Made by a program: the position numbers and the translations under genes
Origin: an uncultured Syntrophomonadaceae bacterium
GTDB taxonomy: Bacteria > Bacillota > Dethiobacteria > DTU022
NCBI GenBank assembly: GCA_964464625.1
Contig: CAYXKD010000006.1
Location: 1,256 to 65,255, forward strand
DNA length: 64,000 bases
Reading direction: 5' to 3'
The notes under the pieces: model-generated
The model's input: only the letters and a program-made list of their open reading frames with translations
Told to the model about the DNA's origin: nothing
The model's database searches: none
In this document: positions 179 through 46,949 of the stretch, in pieces
Layout of the letters: each line of letters starts with the position of its first letter
How positions within the stretch are numbered: the stretch's first letter is position 1

Positions 179-758
179 AGCAACTGTACAGCGCACCACC
201 CTGGAGACGGCGGTGGAGCTCGGGCTGCACCTTGACGGCGGCGGCAAGGCTGATCTGAAAACAGGGCTGCCTTTTCTTGAGCATATGCTGACGCTCTGGT
301 GCCGCCACGGTTTTTTTGACCTGCGTATCCGGGCCGAAGGGGATATTGAGGTGGAACCTCATCACCTGGTGGAGGATATCGGACTTTGCCTGGGAAGAAC
401 TTTTTACCAGGCCCTGGGAGAAAAGCGGGGGATCAGGCGTTACGGATTCAGTGCGGTGCCCATGGATGATGCCCTTGTCTTTGCCGTTGCCGATCTTTCC
501 GGCCGTCCCTACCTGCATTACGGGATAGAGCTGCCTGCCGGGCTGGTGGGGACCATGGATGGAGAGCTTTTTGAAGAATTTTGGCGTGCTTTTGTCAACG
601 AAGGCCGCCTGAACCTGCATCTGAAGATGAGCCACGGGCGCAACAAACACCATATTATCGAAGCCTCTTACAAGGCGGCGGGGCGGGCCCTGGGCGAAGC
701 CTCTTCAAAGGTGGAGGGCTTTGACGGTGTTCTCTCCACCAAGGGACGGCTGGAGTGA
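168..758 (+). CDS. hisB: Imidazoleglycerol-phosphate dehydratase
   Basis: Motifs TGLPFLEHML, HHLVED, PMDDAL and NKHHIIEA..KA. RBS GAGGAGG at 154-160. In-frame ATGs at 162, 165 and 168. Confidence 0.96.
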   Translation: MKREATVQRTTLETAVELGLHLDGGGKADLKTGLPFLEHMLTLWCRHGFFDLRIRAEGDIEVEPHHLVEDIGLCLGRTFYQALGEKRGIRRYGFSAVPMDDALVFAVADLSGRPYLHYGIELPAGLVGTMDGELFEEFWRAFVNEGRLNLHLKMSHGRNKHHIIEASYKAAGRALGEASSKVEGFDGVLSTKGRLE

Positions 759-768
759 GGTGCCGGTG

Positions 769-1494
769 ATGACAGTGACGGTGATTCCGGCAATCGATCT
801 GAAAGGGGGACGCTGCGTCCGCCTGGTACAGGGCGATCCCGGCCGCGAGACCGTGTACAGCGACGATCCTGTGGCGATGGCCCGGCAGTGGGAGCGGCTC
901 GGCGCCAAACTGCTACACCTGGTTGATCTGGAGGGAGCCTTTACCGGGGATTCAGTTCACGGCAGCGTCATTAAAGAGATAGTTGACTCCATTGCGATTC
1001 CCCTTCAACTGGGCGGTGGGATTCGCTCCCGCGAGGCGGTGCAGCAGGCGCTGGATGCAGGTATTGCCCGGGTAATTCTGGGGACCCTTATCGTGGAGCA
1101 GCCGGAGCTCGGGGCCAGGCTGGCTGCGGAATTCAGTGGCAGGCTTCTTGGCGGAATAGATGCCCGTGATGGAAGAGTGGCGGTGCGGGGCTGGAGAGGG
1201 CAGACTGAAATAAAGGCGGTGGAGCTGGCGCGCCGGGTGGAGCAGTGGGGGATTGGCGAAATTGTGTACACCGATACACAGAAGGACGGCACCCTTGGCG
1301 GGCCAAATTTGCAGGGGCTGGAGGAAATACTCGAGGCCAGCCAGCTTAAAGTTATCGCTGCGGGGGGGATCGCTACGCTGGAGGACCTGCTGGCGCTGAA
1401 ATCCTACGCCCCGCGGGTGAGCGGCGTGATTATGGGACAGGCGCTTTATACCGGGCGCATTGCCCTGCCGGAGGCGATTGCCGCACTGGCCTGA
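769..1494 (+). CDS. hisA: ProFAR isomerase
   Basis: VIPAIDLKGGRCVRLVQG, LHLVDLEGA, LQLGGGIR, YTD..KDGTLGGPN. Start moved from the ORF-track 721 to the ATG at 769. Confidence 0.95.
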   Translation: MTVTVIPAIDLKGGRCVRLVQGDPGRETVYSDDPVAMARQWERLGAKLLHLVDLEGAFTGDSVHGSVIKEIVDSIAIPLQLGGGIRSREAVQQALDAGIARVILGTLIVEQPELGARLAAEFSGRLLGGIDARDGRVAVRGWRGQTEIKAVELARRVEQWGIGEIVYTDTQKDGTLGGPNLQGLEEILEASQLKVIAAGGIATLEDLLALKSYAPRVSGVIMGQALYTGRIALPEAIAALA

Positions 1495-1589
1495 TTATTA
1501 TACGGCAGATAAAGATTTCCCCTTTCAACTGTCTGGATCAGGGGGCGGCCCTTTCACGGCACTGGATTAACAATGGAGGTTACATTTCA

Positions 1590-2000
1590 ATGCCAAATAA
1601 CAATATTACTCATGGGGAAGAGGGCAACACACTATCCATAGATGAGCTAAAATATGATACCGCCGGTCTTATCCCCGCGGTGATCCAGGACAGCAGCGAC
1701 GGCGCCGTGCTCATGCTGGGGTATATGAACAGGGAATCGCTGCGGAGGACCATTAAGAGCGGACGCGTCTGCTTCTGGAGCCGCAGCCGCAGCCAGTTTT
1801 GGCTGAAAGGGGAGAGCTCGGGCAATTATTTTACCCTTCGCTCCATTTGCACCGATTGCGACGCCGATGCGCTGCTGGTCAGGGTAACCGTCGAGGGGTC
1901 GGGAGTTGCCTGCCATACGGGGCGCCGCTCCTGCTTTTTCAATTTGCTGCCCCAGGCGGAAAAAGGTTTTGCTGAGGGCGGGGGCTGTGCCGATGATTGA
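1590..2000 (+). CDS. hisI: Phosphoribosyl-AMP cyclohydrolase (monofunctional, no HisE domain)
   Basis: GLIPAVIQD, VLMLGYMN, FWSRSR..FWLKGESSGN, DCDADALL, ACHTGRRSCF. The ORF ends before any PRA-PH domain. Confidence 0.95.
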   Translation: MPNNNITHGEEGNTLSIDELKYDTAGLIPAVIQDSSDGAVLMLGYMNRESLRRTIKSGRVCFWSRSRSQFWLKGESSGNYFTLRSICTDCDADALLVRVTVEGSGVACHTGRRSCFFNLLPQAEKGFAEGGGCADD

Positions 2001-2805
2001 TTACCATATGCATACGCCGCTCTGCCATCATGCCACCGGTTCTCCTGCAGAGTATCTTGAGGTTGCCCGGCAGAAGGGAATCGGGGAGATCGGCTTTGCC
2101 GACCACTATCCGCTAGGCCTCTTAGGGGTGCAGCAGCACTCCCCTGTAACCATGTCTCCCGGTGAACTTTCCGGATATATCAACGAGATCAGGGCGCTGG
2201 CAGCGGATGAGAAGGAGATCACCGTCAGGCTGGGCATCGAGGTGGATTACATTCCCGGCAAAGAGGAAACCCTGGCGGAACTTCTGCCCCGCGAGCCCTT
2301 TGATTATATCATCGGCTCTATTCACTTCATGGGAGACTGGGATTTTACACATCCCCGGCACGCTGCGCTGTACAACAGTTCCGATCTGGGACAAATTTAT
2401 AGTCGTTACTTTGAGCTTTTGTGGCAGGCCTGTAGCAGCGGCCTTTTTGATATTATGGGCCATATAGATGTGGTCAAAAAATTTGGCCACAGGCTCCCTG
2501 ATGAGGCAATGGAGTTCTACTGGCAGCGTACAGCCTCTATTTTGAAAAAGAATGATCTATGTTTTGAGCTGAACACCGCGGGCCGGGCGGCGCCGGCTGC
2601 CGAATTCTACCCGGGGAGGCGCTTGCTGGAGCTTTGCAGCCGCAAGGAAGTGCCGGTGACCCTGGGCTCGGACGCCCACGGGCCGGAGCAGGTGGGACGC
2701 TACTTTGATGACGCCCTGGCGCTGTTGCATGATGTGGGTTACCGCGAGCTGGCCGTTTTTTCCCGGCGGCAGCGAAACTTCATCCCCCTTGAAAGAGAGA
2801 AGTGA
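1993..2805 (+). CDS. hisK: PHP-family histidinol-phosphate phosphatase (HisJ/HisK type)
   Basis: DYHMHT, GFADHYP, GIEVDY, IIGSIH, GHIDVVKK, ELNTAG, LGSDAH, in his operon context. ATG at 1993 overlaps the hisI end. Confidence 0.88.
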   Translation: MIDYHMHTPLCHHATGSPAEYLEVARQKGIGEIGFADHYPLGLLGVQQHSPVTMSPGELSGYINEIRALAADEKEITVRLGIEVDYIPGKEETLAELLPREPFDYIIGSIHFMGDWDFTHPRHAALYNSSDLGQIYSRYFELLWQACSSGLFDIMGHIDVVKKFGHRLPDEAMEFYWQRTASILKKNDLCFELNTAGRAAPAAEFYPGRRLLELCSRKEVPVTLGSDAHGPEQVGRYFDDALALLHDVGYRELAVFSRRQRNFIPLEREK

Positions 2806-10351: not shown

Positions 10352-10801
10352 GTGCGAGCGGTTGTCCAACGGGTAGAAGAGGCCTGCGTAACGGTGAATG
10401 GAGAGAGTATAGGCAGTATCGGCGCCGGACTGGTTGTTTATCTGGGCGTTGGCCGGGATGACAGCGCCGCCGATTGTGCCTACCTTGCGGAGAAGATAGC
10501 CGGGCTGCGTATCTTTGAAGATGAAAAGGGCCTGATGAACCTTTCCATCAAAGAAAAGGGAGGGGGAGTGCTCTCCATCTCCCAGTTTACTCTTTACGGC
10601 GATTGCAGGAAAGGACGGAGGCCCAGCTTTACTTCTGCCGCCCCCCCGGAAAAGGCAGCCCTGCTCTTTGAAGAATTCTGTGCGCAGCTGGAGCAAAGGG
10701 GTCTCGCCGTTTCAACGGGCAGCTTCGGCGCGATGATGCGCATCGATCAGGTCAACGACGGCCCCGTAACCATCCTCCTGGACAGCCGTAAAACCTTCTA
10801 A
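10352..10801 (+). CDS. dtd: D-aminoacyl-tRNA deacylase
   Basis: (M)RAVVQRV, LRIFED, SQFTL, KGRRPSF, NDGPVT. GTG start at 10352. Confidence 0.96.
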
Positions 10802-10837
10802 TTAGTAAACTTGGTGCCTGGCACCAAGTTTACTAAT
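10801..10837. repeat. Perfect 17-bp inverted repeat (REP-like or terminator-like)
   Basis: ATTAGTAAACTTGGTGC-CTG-GCACCAAGTTTACTAAT, directly at the dtd stop. Confidence 0.85.
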
Positions 10838-10863
10838 GTTGACAGGTATTGCCAGGTGCTGAA

Positions 10864-10892
10864 TTGACAGCCGCTGATACCCGGTTTAAAAT
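10864..10892 (+). promoter_or_regulatory. sigma-A promoter of the hisS-aspS fusion
   Basis: TTGACA-17 nt-TAAAAT, about 30 nt upstream of the TTG start at 10924. Confidence 0.75.
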
Positions 10893-10923
10893 GAGAATAA
10901 TTTTTGGGGAAGGATGAAGGGAA

Positions 10924-13900
10924 TTGCAGTATAAAGCTCCCCGGGGAACGAGGGATATATTTACAGAAGAGGTGGAGAGGTGGCAATTCCTGGAGGAAAC
11001 ATTCAGGAAGCTATGTTCACTTTACGGATACAGTGAGATTCGCACGCCGCTCTTTGAAGAGACAGGGCTTTTTACCCGCAGCGTTGGTGAAGAGAGCGAT
11101 ATTGTATCCAAAGAGATGTATACATTCGAGGACCGGGGCGGGCGTAGTTTAACTTTGCGCCCCGAGGGGACTGCGCCGGTGACAAGAGCCTATATGGAAC
11201 ATAATTTGAAAGAGGGTCCGCAGCCGGTGAAGATGTACTATGTGGGGCCCATGTTTCGCTATGACCGGCCGCAGGCGGGGCGTTACCGCCAGTTTCACCA
11301 GGTGGGCCTGGAGCTTTTCGGAGCGCCCGGTGCAGCCGCCGATGCCGAAATAGTCCTTATATCCCTTAATTTTTTACAGGCGCTGCACATCGGGGATTTT
11401 GATCTTGAGCTGAACAGCGTGGGCTGTCCCCTGTGCCGGCCTGCCTACCGCGAGGAGCTCCTTGCCTTCCTGCAGCCGCTGGAGGGGGAACTCTGCCCGG
11501 ATTGCCGGCGCAGGTTTGCAGATAACCCGCTGCGCGTTCTTGATTGTAAAGAGGAGCGCTGCCGGGAATCTGTCCGGCAGGCGCCGCAGATAATAGACCG
11601 TTTGTGCCCCGGATGCGATTCCCACTTTAGAGAGCTCCGCGAGATGCTGGATGATCTGCAAGTTCAATACCTGCTCAATCCCCGCCTTGTCCGGGGCCTC
11701 GATTACTACAGCCGTACCGCTTTTGAGCTTGTCCCCCGCAACGGCGGGGCGCAGGGCTCTCTGGGCGGCGGCGGGCGCTATGATTATCTTGTGGAATACT
11801 GCGGAGGTCCGCCTCTACCCGGTGTGGGAGCGGCCCTGGGGGTGGAGCGCCTGCTAGCAGCGGCGGAGAGCGCCGCCGCACCGCCATTTACCCCGGTCAA
11901 AACACCGCTCTATATTGCCTCCGCCGGGGAGGTGCCGGCCGCCGGGACGCTCGTCCTTGCCGAAGAGCTGCGCCGCCGGGGCATAGCAGTGGAGACGGAG
12001 CTGATGGAGCGCAGCCTGAAAGGGCAGATGAAATATGCCGGACGGAGAGGTTTTCAAACCGTGCTCATAGTGGGCTCCCGTGAACTGGCTGCAGGGACCG
12101 TTACCCTGCGCCACATGGACACCGGGGAGCAGGAAGAGGTGAGCCGGGAAAAGATCCCGGAGAAGGTGCTGCCGGCGGGCAATCAGATCGATTCCGCTAC
12201 TGTCTTTACGCCGGAAGAAGAGCCGCCGGGCTGTGGAGAGCTCCGGGCAGCCCATGCCGGCAATGAGGTTTTCCTACAGGGCTGGGTGCAGCGGCGCCGC
12301 GACCACGGAGGGCTTCTTTTTGTCGACCTTCGCGATCGCACCGGCCTGGTCCAGCTTCTTTTCAACAGCGACGGAGACAAAGAGCTTTTTTCCGCTGCTG
12401 AAAGCCTGCGCAGCGAATATGTCATCGCAGTCCGGGGAAAGGTGGTGATGCGGGATCCCTCCAATGTCAACCCCGCCCTGAAAACGGGGGAGATTGAGAT
12501 CGGGATAGACTCGCTGGAAATACTCAATGAGGCTAAAACACCGCCTTTCTATATTGAAGACGGGCTTCATGCCGACGAGAACCTGCGCCTGCGCTACCGC
12601 TATCTAGACTTGCGCCGCCCCGAAAACTACCGGCGCCTGGCGCTGCGCCACCGTGCGGTGAAGTTTATCCGCGACTACCTTGACAGCTGCGGTTTCCTGG
12701 AGATCGAGACGCCGGCGCTTACGCGCAGTACCCCTGAAGGGGCCCGCGACTATCTTGTGCCCAGCCGCACAAACCCCGGCTCTTTTTATGCGCTGCCACA
12801 ATCGCCCCAGCTTTTTAAGCAGCTGCTCATGGCCGGTGGGGTTGAACGCTACTTCCAGATTGCCCGCTGTTTCCGCGATGAAGATCTGCGTGCCGACCGC
12901 CAGCCGGAATTCACCCAGATCGATATTGAGGCTTCATTTCTGGGCCGCGAACGCCTGTTTGGCATTATGGAAGGGATGATGGCCTGTCTGTACAGGGATC
13001 TTCTGGGATGGGAGCTATCCCTCCCATTCCCCAGGCTGCCCTACAGTGAGGCCATAGCCCGTTTTGGCACGGACAAGCCTGATCTGCGCTTCGGGATGGA
13101 GCTTGTTGACTGCAGTGCACCGGCAGGGGAAAGCGATTTCAAAATTTTCCGCGCCGCCCTGGAGGCAGGCGGGGCAGTCAAGGCGCTTCGGGTGCCCGGT
13201 AAAGGGGGCGTCAGCCGCAAAGAGCTGGACGATCTGGTAGCCCTGGCCATTGAATTCGGCGCCCGGGGGCTGGCCTGGCTCATCCGTGATGAAAAGGGCT
13301 GGCGTTCGCCCATCACCAAATTTTTCGGCCCCGGTCTTCTGGATAAGATAGGAGAGCTGACAGGGGCTCTTCCCGGTGACCTGCTCCTTTTTGGCGCCGG
13401 CGATGCCGCGGTATCTTCGGAAATCCTTGGCCGGCTGCGGCTTCACCTCGCCCCGGAAGGGCTTACAAAGGATCCGCATTTTCTCTGGGTGGTCGACTTT
13501 CCTCTCTTTGAATATGATCCTGCGGAGAAGCGCCTTAATCCGGCACACCATCCTTTTACCGCTCCTCTTGAAGAGGACCTTGGCCTTCTGGAAGAAAAAC
13601 CGCTGGCGGTGCGCTCGCAGGCCTATGACCTTGTCCTGAACGGTGTGGAGTTGGGATCGGGAAGCAACCGGATTCACCGCCGCGAAACGCAAATGCGCAT
13701 TTTCAAGATGCTCGGCCTTTCGGAAAGTGAGGTGATGGAGAAATTTTCCTTCCTGCTGGAGGCTTTTGAGTATGGGACACCGCCTCATGGCGGCATTGCT
13801 CTGGGGCTGGACCGGATGGTGGCTCTTTTTACGGGGGACGATTCCATTCGCCAGGTCATCGCTTTTCCCAAGACTGCCTCGGGAAGCTGCCTCCTTACGG

Positions 13901-13989
13901 GTGCTCCTGCCCCGGTGGCGCCGCAGCAGTTGCAGGAGCTGGGCCTTGTCGTCAGATCCGCTTCAAAAGACGGCTCCCCAAATTGCTAA
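10924..13989 (+). CDS. hisS-aspS: Fused histidyl-tRNA synthetase / aspartyl-tRNA synthetase (1021 aa)
   Basis: aa 1-416 are HisRS (LRPEGTA, GPMFRYDRPQAGRYRQFHQ, LVRGLDYY, GGGRYD, GVERL, anticodon domain). aa 417-436 are a linker. aa 437-1021 are AspRS (CGELR, GWVQRRRDHGG, STPEGARDY, QSPQLFKQLLM, FRDEDLRADRQPEFTQID, HHPFT, PPHGGIALGLDR). One uninterrupted frame. Confidence 0.95.
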   Translation: MQYKAPRGTRDIFTEEVERWQFLEETFRKLCSLYGYSEIRTPLFEETGLFTRSVGEESDIVSKEMYTFEDRGGRSLTLRPEGTAPVTRAYMEHNLKEGPQPVKMYYVGPMFRYDRPQAGRYRQFHQVGLELFGAPGAAADAEIVLISLNFLQALHIGDFDLELNSVGCPLCRPAYREELLAFLQPLEGELCPDCRRRFADNPLRVLDCKEERCRESVRQAPQIIDRLCPGCDSHFRELREMLDDLQVQYLLNPRLVRGLDYYSRTAFELVPRNGGAQGSLGGGGRYDYLVEYCGGPPLPGVGAALGVERLLAAAESAAAPPFTPVKTPLYIASAGEVPAAGTLVLAEELRRRGIAVETELMERSLKGQMKYAGRRGFQTVLIVGSRELAAGTVTLRHMDTGEQEEVSREKIPEKVLPAGNQIDSATVFTPEEEPPGCGELRAAHAGNEVFLQGWVQRRRDHGGLLFVDLRDRTGLVQLLFNSDGDKELFSAAESLRSEYVIAVRGKVVMRDPSNVNPALKTGEIEIGIDSLEILNEAKTPPFYIEDGLHADENLRLRYRYLDLRRPENYRRLALRHRAVKFIRDYLDSCGFLEIETPALTRSTPEGARDYLVPSRTNPGSFYALPQSPQLFKQLLMAGGVERYFQIARCFRDEDLRADRQPEFTQIDIEASFLGRERLFGIMEGMMACLYRDLLGWELSLPFPRLPYSEAIARFGTDKPDLRFGMELVDCSAPAGESDFKIFRAALEAGGAVKALRVPGKGGVSRKELDDLVALAIEFGARGLAWLIRDEKGWRSPITKFFGPGLLDKIGELTGALPGDLLLFGAGDAAVSSEILGRLRLHLAPEGLTKDPHFLWVVDFPLFEYDPAEKRLNPAHHPFTAPLEEDLGLLEEKPLAVRSQAYDLVLNGVELGSGSNRIHRRETQMRIFKMLGLSESEVMEKFSFLLEAFEYGTPPHGGIALGLDRMVALFTGDDSIRQVIAFPKTASGSCLLTGAPAPVAPQQLQELGLVVRSASKDGSPNC

Positions 13990-14266
13990 AAGCATTGATG
14001 AGATCGTGCATCATCCCCGAGCCGCGGGATATGAGCAGTCCGGTAAGGATGTAATCGGCAGGGGGGCAGCGGATAAAACCTTCCCCGGCCGGGGCCAGCA
14101 GGCCCCTGTTTGTAAGATAGCAGAGCAGAATTCCCATGGGGAGGGTAATCCAGTGGGCGGGAAGGCGCTGCAGCAGGGGGATGCTCTCTCTAAGAGCTTC
14201 GGTGATGAATTCCACCGCCACCGCCAGGTAAAGCAGGGTTATCAGAGCATTTGTCACCTTCTGCAT
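13952..14266 (-). CDS. Small multi-pass membrane protein, holin-like (hypothetical)
   Basis: 104 aa with 2-3 hydrophobic segments, an EFITE motif and a C-terminal LTGLLISRGSGMMHDL followed by a basic tail. AAAGGAG upstream; the start could be ATG 14266 or GTG 14257. Confidence 0.7.
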   Translation of the reverse strand: MQKVTNALITLLYLAVAVEFITEALRESIPLLQRLPAHWITLPMGILLCYLTNRGLLAPAGEGFIRCPPADYILTGLLISRGSGMMHDLINAFSNLGSRLLKRI

Positions 14267-14473: not shown

Positions 14474-14652
14474 AAAGGCCCTGCTGTGTTCGTGTTTACC
14501 GATAAAGTTTTGAGCTAACACATGATTCCAGGGAGCCCGGGCTTTAGCTTGTGGCGTAGCAGCCTCCTCTGAGAGGACCTATAAAGCGGCTAAGAGGGCA
14601 CCCACCTTTAGGGGGAACAGTTCAAAACCCACGGTCCACGGCATAGCGGGGT
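14474..14652 (+). ncRNA. ssrS: 6S RNA
   Basis: Firmicute 6S signature blocks GGGAGCCCG, TGGCGTA..GCCTC, GAGGAC, AAGAGGGCACCCACC, GTTCAAAAC. The ends pair (CCCTGCTGTGTTCGTG with CACGGCATAGCGGGG). Lies downstream of aspS, as in Bacillus. Confidence 0.9.
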
Positions 14653-14682
14653 TTTTTACGCAGCAAAAAGGGAGGTGAAAAT

Positions 14683-43899: not shown

Positions 43900-44157
43900 A
43901 AAGCGGCGATGAACGGGCCAGTAAGCTGCAGAATATTTCTTTAAGAGAGCCGGGAACAGGTGCGAGCCCGGTGAAATGCTGCTGCTGAAAATCCCCCGGG
44001 AGTTCCCCTGAGAAATCCTTAGGGATAGTAGACAGGGGCGGGCCCACCGTTAGAGGGCAACCGTAGAGAGGCCGCCGGGGGTGCCGGACCGGCGGCTATA
44101 AGGGTGGTACCGCGGGAGCAATCTCGTCCCTAAATCGAAAAGGGAGGAGATTTTTTT
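43900..44157 (+). ncRNA. T-box riboswitch (Ile specifier)
   Basis: AGAGAGC and GGTG motifs, specifier GAAA-ATC (AUC, Ile) at 43991-43993, T-box AGGGTGGTACCGCG at 44101-44114, terminator hairpin 44120-44157. Confidence 0.93.
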
Positions 44158-44186: not shown

Positions 44187-46949
44187 ATGAAGGATCAGGA
44201 TTACCGCGAGACATTGAATCTACCCCGCACAGATTTCCCCATGCGGGCGCAACTACCACGGCGGGAGCCGGAAATATTAAGCTACTGGAACAGGATGGAG
44301 ATTTACGACAGGGTGCAGCGTTTGCGGCGGGGAGGACCGCAGTATATTCTGCATGACGGCCCTCCCTATGCCAACAACGACATTCACATGGGCACTGCCC
44401 TGAACAAGGTGCTCAAAGATTTCATAGTAAAATACAAGACCATGCGCGGTTTTGACAGCCCCTATGTGCCCGGTTGGGATACGCACGGGCTGCCCATTGA
44501 ACACCAGATTATTAAAACCAGGGGGGTTAACCGTAAGGAGATTTCACCCCTGGAGTTCCGGCGGATGTGTCGTGACTATGCACTGGAATATGTGGCTATC
44601 CAGCGGGATCAATTTCGTCGTCTGGGGGTGCGGGGCTGCTGGGAAGACCCCTACCTGACCCTGGCGCACGCTTACGAGGCCCGTCAGATCGCCGTTTTCG
44701 GGGAAATGGTCTCGCGCGGTTATATATATAAGGGCCTCCGGCCTGTTTACTGGTGTCCCCGATGTGAAACCGCCCTGGCCGAGGCCGAGGTGGAATATGG
44801 CGATCACCGCACTGATTCCATCTATGTGAAGTTTCCGGTGGTGGAGGATCGCGGTCTGCTGGAGGGGGCGGAGGGATGTTACTGTCTCATCTGGACGACA
44901 ACAGCATGGACGATCCCCGCCAACCTGGCTATCTGTATTCATCCTCATCTTGATTATGTGCTTGCCGGCGCAGGTGATGAAAGATATCTTCTCGCTGAAG
45001 AGCTGCTCGAAAACGTCAGCAGTGAAACTGGAGGCGGCTCCTGGAAGGTACTGCGCCGCTTTAAAGGGCAGGAACTGGAGGGGGTTGTCTGCCGTCATCC
45101 CCTTTATGACAGGGAATCACCGCTGATTTTAGGCGATCATGTTACACTGGAGCAGGGGACCGGCTGCGTGCACACCGCTCCCGGGCACGGCCTGGAGGAC
45201 TATGATGTGGGTCGTCTCTACCGTCTGCCCGTGCTCAGCCCCATTGATGACAAGGGGGTATTTACCGGTGAGGCGGGCGAGTTTGCCGGAATGTCCTATG
45301 CCGCCGGCGGTGAAGCGGTGGTCCGGGCGCTGGAGCGTGAAGGGGTATTGATGAAAGCTTCTCCCTATGAACACCAGTACCCCCACTGCTGGCGCTGCAA
45401 GGAACCTGTTCTTTTCCGGGCTACGGAGCAGTGGTTTGCCTCCATCGATGGATTTCGCAGGGAGGCCCTGGAGGCTGTTCGAAAAGTCAGGTGGACTCCT
45501 GCCTGGGGTGAAGAGCGGATCTACAATATGATATCCGAACGGCAGGACTGGTGCATTTCGCGTCAGCGGATCTGGGGCGTACCCATTCCAATTTTCTATT
45601 GCCAGGCCTGCAATGAAGCGATTATCGATCCCCGGGTCATTGCTGCGGTATCCGCCCTTTTCAGCAGGGAGGGTTCCGACGCCTGGTATGCCCGGGAGGC
45701 GGAGGAGATCTTGCCGCCGGGTTACAGCTGCCCTGCCTGCGGTGGCGGCACCTTCCGCAAGGAACATGACACCATGGATGTATGGTTCGATTCGGGGACA
45801 AGCCATTTTGCCGTCCTTGAGGGGCGTCCTGAGCTGCGCTGGCCGGCTGATCTCTACCTTGAGGGGAGCGATCAATACCGGGGCTGGTTTCACTCATCGC
45901 TGCTTACTGCGGTGGCGGTGCGCGGGGAGCCCCCCTACCGTGCTGTGCTCAGCCACGGCTGGGTGGTTGACGGTGATGGCAGGAAGATGTCCAAGTCGCT
46001 GGGCAATGTCATCGCTCCCTCGGAAATCATTGAAGATTACGGCGCCGACATCCTGCGACTCTGGGTAGCATCCTCGGATTACACCAATGATATTCACCTC
46101 TCCACGGAGATCCTGAAGCAACTTTCCGAGGTTTACCGGAAAATCCGCAATACCTGCCGTTTTCTGCTGGGAAACTGTTTTGATTTCGATCCCTCATCGG
46201 AGGCTGTTGAATACCGATCCCTGGCAGAATTTGACCGCTGGGTACTGCAGAGGCTGGGCCTGCTCATCAAGCGGGTTACGCAGTCTTATGAAGATAATGC
46301 TTACCATATGGTCTATCAGGCGCTGCACAATTTTTGCACCGTGGACCTGAGCAACTTTTATCTTGATGTGCAGAAAGATCGCCTCTATTGTTCAGCGGCG
46401 GATGATCAGGCGCGCCGCGCTGTTCAGACGGTGATGATGACCGTTCTGGAAAGCCTCACCAGGCTCATGGCCCCTGTGCTCACCTTTACCGCCGAGGAGC
46501 TCTGGCAGCAGCTGCCTGGCGAGCGGGAGCCCAGCGTGCAGCTTGCCTCTTGGCCCGAGGTAGATCCCCATTGGGATGATGCGGAGCTGGGGCGGTGTTG
46601 GGATGAACTGCTGGCGGTGCGGGATGAAGTCACCCGTATTCTTGAGGAGGCACGCCGTGAAAAGCTCATCGGCGGCTCCCTGGAGGCCGCCCTGATCCTT
46701 TGGGCTGATGGTGAAACCTACAGGCTTCTCCATCGTTACCGGGAGCAGCTGGCGGAGATCTTCATTGTCTCCACTGTGGAGCTTCGCGAAGGGCTGGATC
46801 AGGCTCCGCAGGGAACGGGCAGCGCCCAGGAGATGCCGCTAAAACTTCACGTAGCCAGGGCGCCGGCGGCAAAATGCCCCCGCTGCTGGATCTATGCTGC
46901 GCCGGCCGAGAACGCCCTTTGTCCCCGCTGCAGTTCCCTTTTGGAGTAA
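44187..46949 (+). CDS. ileS: Isoleucyl-tRNA synthetase (type 1)
   Basis: TLNLP.TDFPMR, HDGPPYAN, GWDTHGLPIE, WTTT, GTGCVHTAPGHG, DWCISRQR, KMSKS, C-terminal CPRC...CPRC zinc site. Confidence 0.98.
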   Translation: MKDQDYRETLNLPRTDFPMRAQLPRREPEILSYWNRMEIYDRVQRLRRGGPQYILHDGPPYANNDIHMGTALNKVLKDFIVKYKTMRGFDSPYVPGWDTHGLPIEHQIIKTRGVNRKEISPLEFRRMCRDYALEYVAIQRDQFRRLGVRGCWEDPYLTLAHAYEARQIAVFGEMVSRGYIYKGLRPVYWCPRCETALAEAEVEYGDHRTDSIYVKFPVVEDRGLLEGAEGCYCLIWTTTAWTIPANLAICIHPHLDYVLAGAGDERYLLAEELLENVSSETGGGSWKVLRRFKGQELEGVVCRHPLYDRESPLILGDHVTLEQGTGCVHTAPGHGLEDYDVGRLYRLPVLSPIDDKGVFTGEAGEFAGMSYAAGGEAVVRALEREGVLMKASPYEHQYPHCWRCKEPVLFRATEQWFASIDGFRREALEAVRKVRWTPAWGEERIYNMISERQDWCISRQRIWGVPIPIFYCQACNEAIIDPRVIAAVSALFSREGSDAWYAREAEEILPPGYSCPACGGGTFRKEHDTMDVWFDSGTSHFAVLEGRPELRWPADLYLEGSDQYRGWFHSSLLTAVAVRGEPPYRAVLSHGWVVDGDGRKMSKSLGNVIAPSEIIEDYGADILRLWVASSDYTNDIHLSTEILKQLSEVYRKIRNTCRFLLGNCFDFDPSSEAVEYRSLAEFDRWVLQRLGLLIKRVTQSYEDNAYHMVYQALHNFCTVDLSNFYLDVQKDRLYCSAADDQARRAVQTVMMTVLESLTRLMAPVLTFTAEELWQQLPGEREPSVQLASWPEVDPHWDDAELGRCWDELLAVRDEVTRILEEARREKLIGGSLEAALILWADGETYRLLHRYREQLAEIFIVSTVELREGLDQAPQGTGSAQEMPLKLHVARAPAAKCPRCWIYAAPAENALCPRCSSLLE

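What the first reader, a model, noticed from the sequence alone, without database searches (positions are those of the whole stretch)
10924..13989. Natural HisRS-AspRS fusion: two complete class II synthetases in one polypeptide
Seen: one 1021-codon frame contains a full HisRS (motifs 1-3, HisA/HisB loops, anticodon domain ending ...EQEEVSREKIPEKVL at nt 12171). A 20-aa linker PAGNQIDSATVFTPEEEPPG (12172-12231) follows, then a full AspRS starting at CGELR. The linker has no stop and no ATG, and the usual AspRS 'M..RTH.CG' start is replaced by 'PPG-CG'. A single base-call error removing the hisS stop would have left an intact aspS start, so this looks like a fixed fusion. Established: hisS and aspS are adjacent but separate genes in many Bacillota, each enzyme is a homodimer, and the best-known fusion of two synthetases is metazoan EPRS. 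I do not recall a characterised bacterial HisRS-AspRS. Inference: a chain with two independent dimer interfaces must form either a compact four-site dimer or cross-linked higher-order assemblies, a minimal bacterial analogue of a multisynthetase complex.
Basis: partly seen in the sequence, partly recalled or inferred. Interest (0 to 1): 0.88.

Follow-up and report, generated by a model that had tools for sequence, protein, structure and literature searches.

The report
Conserved bacterial HisRS–AspRS fusion gene
One gene in this uncultured Bacillota genome encodes a complete histidyl-tRNA synthetase joined by a short flexible linker to a complete aspartyl-tRNA synthetase; the fusion is real, is inherited across a whole clade, and I found no description of it in the searchable literature.

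Summary
ORF 10924-13989 (+, TTG start, 1021 codons) holds a full HisRS (aa 1-416), a 20-residue linker (aa 417-436) and a full bacterial-type AspRS (aa 437-1011).

It is not a sequencing artefact:
- About 95 sequences from NCBI, JGI, ENA and Logan assemblies have the same architecture, at 85% down to about 57% identity.
- A second assembly of the same species spans the junction at 100% identity.
- Catalytic motifs of both halves are invariant across the clade.
- The HisRS half is at least as conserved as in split relatives.
- The linker has no conserved internal start codon, and AlphaFold2 predicts it disordered.

In a bootstrapped neighbour-joining (NJ) tree the AspRS halves of all core fusions form one clade (96%). 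Its sister (99%) is a split locus where the hisS TAA stop directly abuts an in-frame aspS TTG start. Loss of one stop codon therefore explains the origin.

Related lineages carry hisS only or aspS only at this locus. Independent fusions occur in Acidobacteriota and in other lineages.

Seven literature searches and two aaRS reviews found no description, and databases name these proteins only "aspartate--tRNA ligase". The two activities, the oligomeric state and the absence of stand-alone copies elsewhere in the genome remain untested. I rate it a new variant of a known kind, of moderate to high interest.

The parts
10802..10836 (+). Perfect palindrome with 17-bp arms (TTAGTAAACTTGGTGCC / TGGCACCAAGTTTACTAA) directly after the dtd stop codon. 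It could be a terminator or an operator; its function was not tested.
   Evidence: Read directly from the sequence. L001 has a different GC-rich hairpin at the same place.
10864..10892 (+). Sigma-70-like promoter candidate: TTGACA, 17-nt spacer, TAAAAT (11 of 12 matches), 32 nt upstream of the start codon.
   Evidence: Consensus scan. This is a pattern match only. 5 such sites were found against 3.4 expected in shuffles.
10906..10923 (+). Purine-rich ribosome-binding region GGGGAAGGATGAAGGGAA upstream of the TTG start.
   Evidence: Sequence. A similar GGGAAGGGTGAGGGTAA followed by TTG is seen in L001.
10924..13989 (+). Single hisS-aspS fusion ORF: 1021 codons plus stop, TTG start.
   Evidence: The N-terminus MQYKAPRGTRD matches the clade consensus MxYKAPRGTRD.
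10924..11883 (+). HisRS class IIa catalytic domain (aa 1-320). It contains motif 2 FRYDRPQAGRYRQFHQ (aa 111-126), HisA RGLDYY (aa 257-262), HisB GGGRYD (aa 282-287) and motif 3 (aa 300-310).
   Evidence: Pfam PF13393 aa 8-310. TIGR00442 scores 501 bits. These residues are invariant in 92 fusion proteins.
11425..11616 (+). Cys-rich part of the HisRS insertion domain: C168/C171, C191/C194, C208 (plus C213) and C228/C231. It is probably metal-binding.
   Evidence: C168, C171, C191, C194, C208, C228 and C231 are invariant and C213 nearly invariant in alignment A2. Metal binding is an inference.
11884..12171 (+). HisRS C-terminal anticodon-binding domain (aa 321-416). The last helix is aa 408-415.
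   Evidence: Pfam PF03129 aa 345-415. AF2 secondary structure.
12172..12231 (+). Linker PAGNQIDSATVFTPEEEPPG (aa 417-436). It has no stop and no start codon, is predicted disordered, and is the shortest in the clade.
   Evidence: pLDDT is below 50 for aa 417-433. Mean column identity is 0.39 against about 0.8 in the catalytic domains. Length measured from R408 is 28 aa, against a clade median of 40.
12232..12543 (+). AspRS N-terminal OB-fold anticodon-binding domain (aa 437-540). The usual M-x-R-T-H start is absent. It carries RRRDHGG, as the two PDB enzymes labelled Asp/Asn ligase do.
   Evidence: Pfam PF01336 aa 450-534. The best PDB matches for this domain are 4WJ3 and 5W25, both Asp/Asn ligases.
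12544..13956 (+). AspRS class IIb catalytic core (aa 541-1011). It contains QSPQ (aa 626-629), motif 2 FRDEDLRADRQPEFTQ (aa 650-665) and motif 3 GIALGLDR (aa 957-964). The bacterial GAD insertion is aa 742-832 (nt 13147-13419).
   Evidence: Pfam PF00152 aa 551-984 and PF02938 aa 742-832. NF001750 scores 789 bits. The motifs are invariant.
13957..13989 (+). Non-conserved 10-residue C-terminal tail and stop codon. It overlaps a convergent small gene.
   Evidence: Tail conservation is 0.27. The overlap is with ORF 13952-14266 on the minus strand.

Best explanation
**What it is.** This is a genuine, vertically inherited gene fusion. It encodes one polypeptide of about 113 kDa that is both the histidyl-tRNA synthetase and the aspartyl-tRNA synthetase of the cell.

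**Origin (inferred from comparison).** The ancestor had the usual Bacillota hisS-aspS pair at the relA-dtd locus. The hisS stop codon sat directly against an in-frame aspS start codon, as still seen in the sister lineage L051 (TAA then TTG). Loss of that single stop codon merged the two reading frames. The former HisRS tail plus the first AspRS residues became the linker.

**How it works.**
- Shown: the gene is one ORF with a promoter-like site and an RBS-like region upstream, no T-box and no conserved internal start.
- Shown: both halves keep every defining class II motif and both anticodon-binding domains under purifying selection.
- Shown: the linker is variable and predicted disordered.
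- Inferred: each half charges its own tRNA independently. The AspRS half possibly also charges tRNA-Asn.
- Inferred: stoichiometry is fixed at 1:1.
- Inferred: because both parent enzymes are obligate homodimers, two chains most likely form a closed alpha2 particle. It would have a HisRS dimer and an AspRS dimer, four active sites and a mass of about 226 kDa.
For: **Architecture**
- ORF and domains.
- 101 full-length homologues with the same architecture, from four data sources.
- 8 GTDB species representatives are fused.

**Independent assemblies**
- An identical protein occurs on another NCBI contig, and a fragment spanning the junction at 100% identity occurs on a further contig.
- The identical subgroup-B protein P0019 occurs in three separate JGI metagenome assemblies with conserved secDF-recJ-relA-dtd-fusion-mgtE-mraZ synteny.

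**Selection on both halves**
- Mean column identity is 0.81 (HisRS catalytic domain), 0.66 (HisRS anticodon-binding domain), 0.76 (AspRS OB-fold) and 0.82 (AspRS core), against 0.39 for the linker.
- Catalytic residues are invariant.
- At equal AspRS identity, the HisRS half is at least as conserved in fused pairs as in split pairs.

**Single polypeptide**
- No conserved ATG, GTG or TTG in the linker DNA of 10 fused loci.
- Linker pLDDT is below 50.

**Origin**
- In the AspRS NJ tree, fused monophyly has 96% bootstrap support and L051 as sister has 99%.
- The L051 junction reads KEEG*LRNQRTHWCG. Read through, it gives 28 residues, the same length as the window's connection.

**Not another family**
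- The hisZ model and the AspRS-GatC model both score below their cutoffs.
Against: - No biochemical or proteomic evidence exists. Activities, the intact polypeptide in vivo and the oligomeric state are all inferred.
- Whole genomes could not be searched, so stand-alone hisS or aspS copies elsewhere cannot be excluded.
- Related lineages with only hisS (L086, L088, L090) or only aspS (L093, L094) at this locus show that the clade can supply either enzyme from elsewhere.
- The HisRS tree and the flank-marker tree do not resolve the order of subgroup A, subgroup B and the hisS-only lineage. A single origin therefore rests mainly on the AspRS half and on NJ trees only.
- AF2 gives no confident inter-domain geometry (pTM 0.47 and 0.53).
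Confidence: 0.8

Rival explanations
1. Artefact. A sequencing, assembly or gene-calling error removed the hisS stop codon, and the organism really has two genes.
For: A single-base change would be enough, because the sister locus L051 differs from a fusion by one in-frame stop codon. The window comes from a metagenome-type contig.
Against: - About 95 sequences in one clade, at 57-85% identity and from many independent assemblies, all keep the frame open.
- The aspS start codon and the M-x-RTH N-terminus are gone in the window's subgroup.
- An independent assembly of the same species has the same junction.
- P0019 is identical in three metagenomes.
Confidence: 0.01
2. The fusion is translated as one chain, but free enzymes are produced as well or instead. 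This would happen by proteolytic cleavage of the linker or by internal initiation giving free AspRS.
For: - The linker is exposed and predicted disordered, so it could be protease-accessible.
- A GTG at 12166-12168 preceded by GGAG lies just upstream of the linker.
Against: - No start codon is conserved in or near the linker across 10 fused loci.
- The conserved Val/Leu positions of subgroup B use varied codons (GTC, GTT, GTG, TTT, GCA).
- Only 9 of 95 linkers have a Met in their last 15 residues, at differing positions.
- The GGAG-to-GTG spacing in the window is only 3 nt.
- No known processing motif was found.
Confidence: 0.08
3. One half is a non-catalytic or regulatory paralogue, such as a HisZ-like or otherwise inactive module. 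The real housekeeping enzyme would then be encoded elsewhere.
For: - HisRS paralogues such as HisZ exist, and hisF plus a PHP-domain gene (possibly a histidinol phosphatase) lie in the same window.
- Sister lineages lack one or other gene at this locus, so other sources of these enzymes must exist in the wider clade.
Against: - The HisRS half scores above the hisS equivalog cutoff (501 against 287 bits) and below the hisZ cutoff (170 against 272 bits).
- It keeps the anticodon-binding domain.
- All motif residues of both halves are invariant.
- There is no rate acceleration in the HisRS half.
- The gene sits at the canonical housekeeping locus.
Confidence: 0.05
4. The fused chain does not close into a dimer. 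Instead it forms open, cross-linked higher-order assemblies such as chains or networks of alternating HisRS and AspRS dimers.
For: - Two independent homodimer interfaces on one chain permit polymerisation in principle.
- The truly flexible segment is short: about 17 residues in the window and about 11 in P0019. That could make closure sterically difficult.
- AF2 finds no defined inter-domain packing (pTM 0.47 and 0.53).
Against: - Linker length is narrowly distributed (median 40 from R408, with 34 of 95 exactly 40). This fits a specific closed geometry better than open polymers.
- Uncontrolled polymerisation of two essential enzymes would probably be costly (inference), yet the fusion has been kept across deep divergence.
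- There is no direct evidence either way.
Confidence: 0.1

Closest known systems
hisS-aspS gene pair at the relA-dtd locus of Bacillota (two separate class II synthetases, often with a T-box leader)
   Same: - Same gene order and neighbourhood: secDF-recJ-relA-dtd-hisS-aspS-6S RNA.
- Both enzymes are complete and of the ordinary bacterial types.
- 53 of 80 related Clostridia loci have this split arrangement.
   Different: - Here there is no hisS stop, no aspS start and no intergenic region; it is one ORF.
- None of 10 fused loci has a T-box, whereas 6 of 12 split relatives have one directly upstream of hisS.
[quoted passage not shown]
   Same: - Two complete synthetases of different specificity sit on one chain joined by a linker.
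- It arose by gene fusion, is retained over a large clade, and has undergone secondary fission in some lineages (PMC4394549; PMC11580382).
   Different: - EPRS joins a class I monomer to a class II dimer through structured WHEP repeats that have regulatory roles, inside the eukaryotic multi-synthetase complex.
- Here two class II homodimers are joined by a short, unstructured, poorly conserved linker of 20-35 residues.
- No Pfam family other than aminoacyl-tRNA synthetase domains matched the protein.
- The host is a bacterium.
Fused (alpha-beta)2 GlyRS of some bacteria and chloroplasts
   Same: Adjacent bacterial synthetase genes are merged into one reading frame (PMC11580382).
   Different: That fusion joins two subunits of one enzyme. 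This one joins two enzymes with different amino-acid and tRNA specificities.
Bifunctional AspRS / GatC protein (NCBIfam NF009460)
   Same: A bacterial AspRS covalently linked to another component of tRNA charging.
   Different: - The partner is GatC, at the C-terminus.
- The window protein scores 607 bits against a cutoff of 1379 and has no GatC part.
HisZ (HisRS-like regulatory subunit of ATP phosphoribosyltransferase)
   Same: It has the HisRS catalytic-domain fold. Histidine-biosynthesis genes lie nearby in the window.
   Different: - HisZ lacks the anticodon-binding domain (my own knowledge) and is named a regulatory subunit of ATP phosphoribosyltransferase rather than a tRNA ligase.
- The window's HisRS half has the domain, passes the hisS model and fails the hisZ model.

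Membership tests
Histidine--tRNA ligase (HisRS, class IIa; NCBIfam TIGR00442) | Whole-protein score above the curated equivalog cutoff | tested here: met
   501.3 bits against a cutoff of 286.75, aa 4-407, model positions 1-405 of 406. 374 bits to HisRS 1qe0.
Histidine--tRNA ligase (HisRS, class IIa; NCBIfam TIGR00442) | Class II motifs 1-3 plus the HisRS-specific HisA (RGLDYY) and HisB (GGRYD) elements | tested here: met
   All are present. R257-Y262, G282-Y286, R112, R120, R122, Q126, E308 and R309 are invariant in 92 fusion proteins.
Histidine--tRNA ligase (HisRS, class IIa; NCBIfam TIGR00442) | C-terminal alpha/beta anticodon-binding domain | tested here: met
   Pfam PF03129 aa 345-415, 56.8 bits.
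Histidine--tRNA ligase (HisRS, class IIa; NCBIfam TIGR00442) | Histidylation of tRNA-His | not testable with these tools
   Needs an enzyme assay or complementation.
Bacterial-type aspartate--tRNA ligase (AspRS, class IIb; NCBIfam NF001750 / TIGR00459) | Whole-protein score above the curated equivalog cutoff | tested here: met
   NF001750 scores 788.7 bits against 443. TIGR00459 scores 723.3 against 373.85. Both cover aa 437-1011. 619.5 bits to T. thermophilus AspRS.
Bacterial-type aspartate--tRNA ligase (AspRS, class IIb; NCBIfam NF001750 / TIGR00459) | N-terminal OB-fold, class II core with motifs 1-3 and the QSPQ loop, and the bacterial GAD insertion | tested here: met
   PF01336 aa 450-534, PF00152 aa 551-984, PF02938 aa 742-832. 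Q626-Q629, F650-D654, G961, D963 and R964 are invariant.
Bacterial-type aspartate--tRNA ligase (AspRS, class IIb; NCBIfam NF001750 / TIGR00459) | Own initiation codon and the M-x-R-T-H N-terminus | tested here: not met
   This is replaced by ...EEEPPG-CGELR. The alignment starts at residue 7 of the T. thermophilus enzyme. This is the fusion itself, not a loss of the enzyme fold.
Bacterial-type aspartate--tRNA ligase (AspRS, class IIb; NCBIfam NF001750 / TIGR00459) | Discriminating (Asp only) versus non-discriminating (Asp/Asn) specificity | tested here: inconclusive
   - The best PDB matches for the anticodon-binding domain are two enzymes whose PDB entries name them Asp/Asn ligases: 4WJ3 (P. 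aeruginosa by my recollection) and 5W25 (M. tuberculosis by my recollection).
- The window shares their RRRDHGG. Two enzymes named aspartyl-tRNA synthetase, 1efw and 1c0a (T. thermophilus and E. coli by my recollection), have Leu at that position.
- The second residue I recall as diagnostic is Ser here, neither Gly nor Lys.
- No gatCAB or asnS information is available.
Two-synthetase fusion protein (EPRS-like bifunctional aaRS) | Two complete synthetases of different specificity in one uninterrupted reading frame | tested here: met
Two-synthetase fusion protein (EPRS-like bifunctional aaRS) | The fusion is conserved in relatives rather than a singleton | tested here: met
   A 95-sequence clade at 57-85% identity. 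AspRS-tree monophyly has 96% bootstrap support.
Two-synthetase fusion protein (EPRS-like bifunctional aaRS) | Structured WHEP-type linker | tested here: not met
   Only aminoacyl-tRNA synthetase families were reported for the protein, and none covers aa 416-449. Linker pLDDT is below 50. It works like a tethered pair but is not an EPRS homologue.
Two-synthetase fusion protein (EPRS-like bifunctional aaRS) | Intact bifunctional polypeptide in the cell, with both activities | not testable with these tools
   Needs proteomics and enzyme assays.
HisZ (ATP phosphoribosyltransferase regulatory subunit, TIGR00443) | Score above the cutoff; no anticodon-binding domain | tested here: not met
   170.2 bits against a cutoff of 271.65. 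The HGTP_anticodon domain is present.
Bifunctional AspRS/GatC (NF009460) | Score above the cutoff, with a C-terminal GatC module | tested here: not met
   607.2 bits against a cutoff of 1379. Only model positions 22-616 of 723 are matched.
T-box-regulated hisS-aspS operon | T-box leader upstream of hisS | tested here: not met
   - No Rfam hit at 10700-11100, even at E<=1.
- None in 9 other fused loci, whereas 6 of 12 split relatives have one.
- The organism does use a T-box elsewhere, at 43900-44134.

The most novel reading that the evidence does not exclude
The fusion is not a neutral accident. It is a selected, minimal bacterial multi-synthetase particle in which a HisRS dimer and an AspRS dimer are held in one defined assembly, with functional coupling between them. 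The coupling could be obligatory 1:1 dosage, shared localisation or hand-off to the translation machinery. If the AspRS half is non-discriminating, it could also recruit HisRS to a GatCAB transamidosome.

The clade also offers a natural fusion/fission series at one locus (split, fused, hisS-only, aspS-only). That series would make the costs and benefits of synthetase fusion directly testable.
Probability: 0.25. Interest if true: 0.8.

Novelty: new variant of a known kind. Interest (0 to 1): 0.62.

Why it matters
**A rare kind of fusion.** Covalent fusions of two different aminoacyl-tRNA synthetases are rare. They are known essentially from metazoan EPRS, which sits inside a complicated eukaryotic complex. 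A conserved bacterial HisRS-AspRS would be a much simpler system for three questions:
- How do two obligate homodimers share one chain?
- Does tethering synthetases bring any kinetic or regulatory benefit?
- How do such fusions arise and get lost? Here the likely precursor state (an in-frame stop directly against a start) and single-gene derivatives exist in sister lineages.

**A practical annotation problem.** Public annotation calls these proteins only "aspartate--tRNA ligase". By that label, HisRS may appear to be missing from these MAGs in automated completeness or metabolic calls (inference).

Tried and rejected
**Regulation and expression**
1. T-box or other riboswitch upstream. No Rfam hit at the gathering threshold or at E<=1. 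Rejected.
2. Internal translation start for a separate AspRS. I inspected the codons of 10 fused loci and found no conserved ATG, GTG or TTG. Rejected as a conserved feature.

**Other family assignments**
3. HisZ-like or AspRS-GatC identity. Both models score below their cutoffs. Rejected.

**Searches that gave little**
4. Exact-protein look-up of the window ORF found nothing. The identical protein surfaced later as P0130.
5. The exhaustive HMMER search of 1.84 billion representatives was meant to count independent fusions. The whole clade collapses to one representative (P0003), and other fusions are hidden under non-fused representatives. It gave no count.
6. The search with the HisRS half did not list the close fused relatives. 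I assume this is a limit of the word index. It did reveal the hisS-only lineage.
7. tRNA genes nearby: none in the 64 kb window.

**Structure and phylogeny**
8. AF2 monomer models of the window protein and of P0019 gave good domains but no reliable inter-domain arrangement.
9. Bootstrapped NJ trees of the HisRS half and of RelA+Dtd left the order of subgroup A, subgroup B and the hisS-only lineage unresolved. No maximum-likelihood program was available.

**Literature and taxonomy**
10. Seven full-text searches and two aaRS reviews gave no mention of a HisRS-AspRS fusion.
11. A search for the residues diagnostic of non-discriminating AspRS found nothing. That point rests on my memory plus the PDB alignment.
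12. Taxonomic naming of the clade. Source names are only "Bacillota bacterium" or "Syntrophomonadaceae bacterium". The nearest named HisRS sequences are Dethiobacter and Desulfotomaculia at 53-56% identity.

Full report
**1. Observation**

The window contains one ORF at 10924-13989 (+), 1021 codons, starting with TTG.

- Pfam finds tRNA-synt_His (aa 8-310), HGTP_anticodon (345-415), the OB-fold tRNA_anti-codon domain (450-534), tRNA-synt_2 (551-984) and GAD (742-832).
- The NCBIfam equivalog models for hisS (501 bits, cutoff 287) and bacterial aspS (789 bits, cutoff 443) are both passed.
- The hisZ, archaeal-type aspS and AspRS-GatC models are failed.
- Against solved structures, aa 437-1010 align with residues 7-577 of Thermus thermophilus AspRS, and aa 4-411 with residues 3-414 of HisRS 1qe0.
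- Only about six N-terminal AspRS residues, including the start Met, are missing.
- The 64-kb window has no other hisS or aspS.

**2. Real or artefact**

A protein search returned 101 full-length proteins (900-1052 aa) with the same architecture. They come from NCBI, JGI, ENA and Logan assemblies and range from 85% identity downwards.

- In a GTDB species-representative scan, 8 of the 80 best loci have an uninterrupted fused frame. 53 have separate hisS followed by aspS. 19 have no aspS within the fetched flank.
- The identical 1021-aa protein is on record from an NCBI contig of 69,862 bp, which is probably this window's source.
- A 684-aa fragment on a different 6.6-kb contig spans the junction at 100% identity.
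- A subgroup-B protein (P0019) is identical in three separate JGI metagenome assemblies.

An error explanation is therefore excluded for practical purposes.

**3. Anatomy and constraint**

In an alignment of the 95-member core clade, mean column identity by region is as follows.

| Region | Mean column identity |
|---|---|
| HisRS catalytic domain | 0.81 |
| HisRS anticodon-binding domain | 0.66 |
| Linker | 0.39 |
| AspRS OB-fold | 0.76 |
| AspRS catalytic core | 0.82 |

- The diagnostic residues of both enzymes are invariant in 92 fusion proteins. For HisRS these are motif 2, RGLDYY, GGGRY and motif 3. For AspRS they are QSPQ, FRDED and GLDR.
- At a given AspRS identity, the HisRS half is at least as conserved between fused proteins as between split relatives. 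For example it is 0.61 against 0.55 in the 60-65% AspRS bin. Neither half is decaying.
- Counted from the conserved R408 to the residue before the Cys-Gly, linker length is 28-53 residues. The median is 40, and 34 of 95 sequences are exactly 40.
- The window's linker, at 28, is the shortest. Linker composition is rich in A, E, L, G, P and S.
- AlphaFold2 monomer models place pLDDT below 50 on aa 417-433 of the window protein (pTM 0.47).
- In the subgroup-B protein P0019, pLDDT is below 50 only on aa 418-428 (pTM 0.53). Its conserved phi-x-L-P...KTHYCG stretch is modelled with moderate confidence, next to the AspRS OB-fold domain in sequence.
- The relative orientation of the two enzymes is not predicted with confidence.

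**4. Expression signals**

- The dtd stop (10799-10801) is followed by a perfect 17-bp-arm palindrome (10802-10836).
- Next come a sigma-70-like TTGACA-17-TAAAAT site (10864-10892, 11 of 12 matches) and a purine-rich RBS region, then the TTG start.
- The closest relative, L001, also starts with TTG behind a similar RBS.
- There is no T-box or any other Rfam element upstream, even at E<=1. The organism does use a T-box elsewhere, in front of an IleRS-sized class I synthetase gene at 43900-44134.
- None of the nine other fused loci has a T-box. Six of twelve split relatives do, though the nearest split relatives (L051, L039) also lack one.
- The linker DNA of ten fused loci has no conserved ATG, GTG or TTG. 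Only 9 of 95 linkers have a Met near the AspRS start.
- The product is therefore translated as one chain.

**5. Evolution**

The core fusions fall into two subgroups.
- Subgroup A is the window plus P0001-P0015, with three intermediate lineages. Here the AspRS start is reduced to E-E/D-P-P-G-C-G.
- Subgroup B is about 70 clusters that retain K-T/S-H-Y-C-G without a Met.

Phylogenetic results:
- In a bootstrapped NJ tree of the AspRS part, all sampled fusions are monophyletic (96%). The split locus L051 is their sister (99%). L051 is a soda-lake MAG labelled Syntrophomonadaceae.
- In L051 the hisS TAA is followed immediately and in frame by a TTG aspS start (KEEG*LRNQRTHWCG).
- Reading through that stop gives a 28-residue connection, the same length as the window's. 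Loss of one stop codon is therefore a sufficient origin.
- Another split relative, L039, has the ATGA overlap typical of translational coupling.

A search with the HisRS half uncovered two further states of the same locus.
- A lineage with stand-alone HisRS (61-64% identical) has hisS only, followed by 6S RNA and mraZ. No aspS remnant is detectable (L086, L088, L090).
- Another lineage has aspS only (L093, L094).

A RelA+Dtd flank tree unites subgroups A and B, the hisS-only lineage, L051 and the aspS-only lineage with 100% support. It does not resolve their order (A+B 44%). The HisRS tree is equally unresolved at depth. I cannot tell whether the hisS-only lineage lost the AspRS half of a fused ancestor or branched off before the fusion.

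Outside this clade, HisRS-AspRS fusions recur.
- Acidobacteriota MAGs (P0092, P0093) carry one in a different gene neighbourhood.
- P0099 has seven full-length members.
- P0097, P0098 and P0409 have linkers holding 2, 3 or 4 copies of a 9-residue repeat that still includes the old aspS MRT start.
- Some longer, high-GC hits without an anticodon-binding-domain match (P0094, P0096, P0100-P0104) were not verified. They may be frame errors.

**6. How it most likely works**

Shown:
- One ORF with a promoter-like site and an RBS-like region upstream.
- Two intact synthetase modules under purifying selection.
- A variable, disordered tether.

Inferred from established knowledge of class II synthetases:
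- Each module independently activates its amino acid and charges its tRNA.
- Because bacterial HisRS and AspRS are obligate homodimers, two chains most simply close into an alpha2 particle with both dimer interfaces satisfied and four active sites.
- The attachment points are plausible. Class IIb enzymes in eukaryotes tolerate N-terminal extensions before the OB-fold, and the HisRS C-terminus follows its anticodon-binding domain (both from my own knowledge).
- The fusion fixes the two enzymes at equal dosage, replacing the translational coupling seen in split relatives.

The AspRS anticodon-binding domain resembles two enzymes whose PDB entries name them Asp/Asn ligases most closely (4WJ3 and 5W25). 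It shares their RRRDHGG. Charging of tRNA-Asn is therefore possible but undecided.

**7. Comparison with what is known**

- Functionally it is the ordinary hisS-aspS pair of Bacillota, made into one protein.
- As a kind, it resembles metazoan EPRS: two synthetases on one chain, conserved in a clade, with lineage-specific fission (PMC4394549). It is not homologous to EPRS, has no WHEP linker, and joins two class II dimers.
- Two aaRS reviews list EPRS and fused or split isoforms of single synthetases (double-length TyrRS, GlyRS, AlaRS, PheRS, PylRS) and a MetRS-p43 fusion. They list no HisRS-AspRS.
- Seven full-text searches found none.
- Source databases call these proteins only "aspartate--tRNA ligase" or "aspartyl-tRNA synthetase". 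Fragments are called "histidine--tRNA ligase, partial".
- The literature library is incomplete, so an undetected prior description cannot be ruled out.

**8. Verdict**

- I rate it a new variant of a known kind, with interest about 0.6. Adjacent-gene fusion by stop-codon loss is a common evolutionary event, and both halves are ordinary.
- Against that, a deeply conserved fusion of two different, dimeric synthetases in bacteria appears uncharacterised and recurs in other phyla.
- It also comes with a natural series of split, fused and single-gene states that makes its consequences testable.
- The main open points are the two activities, the oligomeric state, and the presence of other hisS or aspS copies in these genomes. 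None of these could be addressed with the tools at hand.

Noticed in passing
window 14475-14656 (+): A 6S RNA gene (RF00013, 93.8 bits) lies between the fusion gene and mgtE. The same placement directly downstream of aspS, of the fusion, or of hisS alone is seen in all 9 other fused loci, in 10 of 12 split relatives and in the hisS-only loci.
   Followed up: partly
window 43900-44134 (+) and ORF 44187-46949 (+): A T-box leader (114.9 bits) sits directly upstream of a 920-aa class I synthetase, which is IleRS-like by size and Pfam domains. The organism therefore uses T-box control for another synthetase but not for the fusion.
   Followed up: partly
window 13952-14266 (-): A convergent 104-aa ORF with no Pfam match overlaps the last 38 nt of the fusion ORF. 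It is 45% identical to a called gene at the same position in the hisS-only locus (L086:4109-4417), so it is probably a real, uncharacterised small gene.
   Followed up: partly
window 10802-10836: A perfect palindrome with 17-bp arms lies immediately after the dtd stop codon, upstream of the promoter-like site of the fusion gene. It could be a terminator or an operator.
   Followed up: no
window 11425-11616 (aa 168-231 of the fusion protein): Four Cys pairs or clusters in the HisRS insertion domain (C168/C171, C191/C194, C208 plus C213, C228/C231). Seven of the eight are invariant and C213 nearly invariant in 92 fusion proteins. This suggests a metal-binding insertion domain.
   Followed up: no
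L086, L088, L090 (hisS only) and L093, L094 (aspS only): Sister lineages keep the same relA-dtd...6S-mgtE/mraZ locus but carry only hisS or only aspS there. There is no remnant of the other gene. An SH3-amidase gene lies upstream in all five loci, and a ParE/RHH toxin-antitoxin pair in L088 and L090. Where the missing synthetase is encoded is unknown.
   Followed up: partly
L085 (Acidobacteriota MAG contig JAZHCF011151925.1) 4001-7051; proteins P0097, P0098, P0409, P0099: Independent HisRS-AspRS fusions occur outside the Bacillota clade. In P0097, P0098 and P0409 the linker contains 2, 3 or 4 copies of the 9-residue repeat TEVQATSMR, which includes the former aspS start.
   Followed up: partly
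subgroup B fusion proteins, e.g. L081 8001-11084 (P0019 aa 431-446): A conserved phi-x-L-P motif lies about 13 residues before KTHYCG in the linker. It is encoded with synonymous variation and is modelled by AF2 with moderate confidence (pLDDT about 72). It is absent from the window's subgroup.
   Followed up: partly
window 12232-12543 (aa 437-540): The AspRS anticodon-binding domain has RRRDHGG and best matches the two PDB enzymes named Asp/Asn ligase (4WJ3, 5W25). This hints at a non-discriminating AspRS and an indirect Asn-tRNA pathway.
   Followed up: partly
L051 10565-10664 (-): A PYLIS_3 hit (pyrrolysine insertion sequence of mttB, 60.2 bits) in the split sister locus suggests that this lineage uses pyrrolysine. 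Its hisS stop is TAA, so this is unrelated to the junction.
   Followed up: no
window 721-2802 (+): hisF (PF00977) and a PHP-domain protein (possibly a histidinol phosphatase) lie upstream of secDF-recJ-relA-dtd. Histidine-biosynthesis genes are thus in the same 64-kb region as the HisRS-containing fusion.
   Followed up: no
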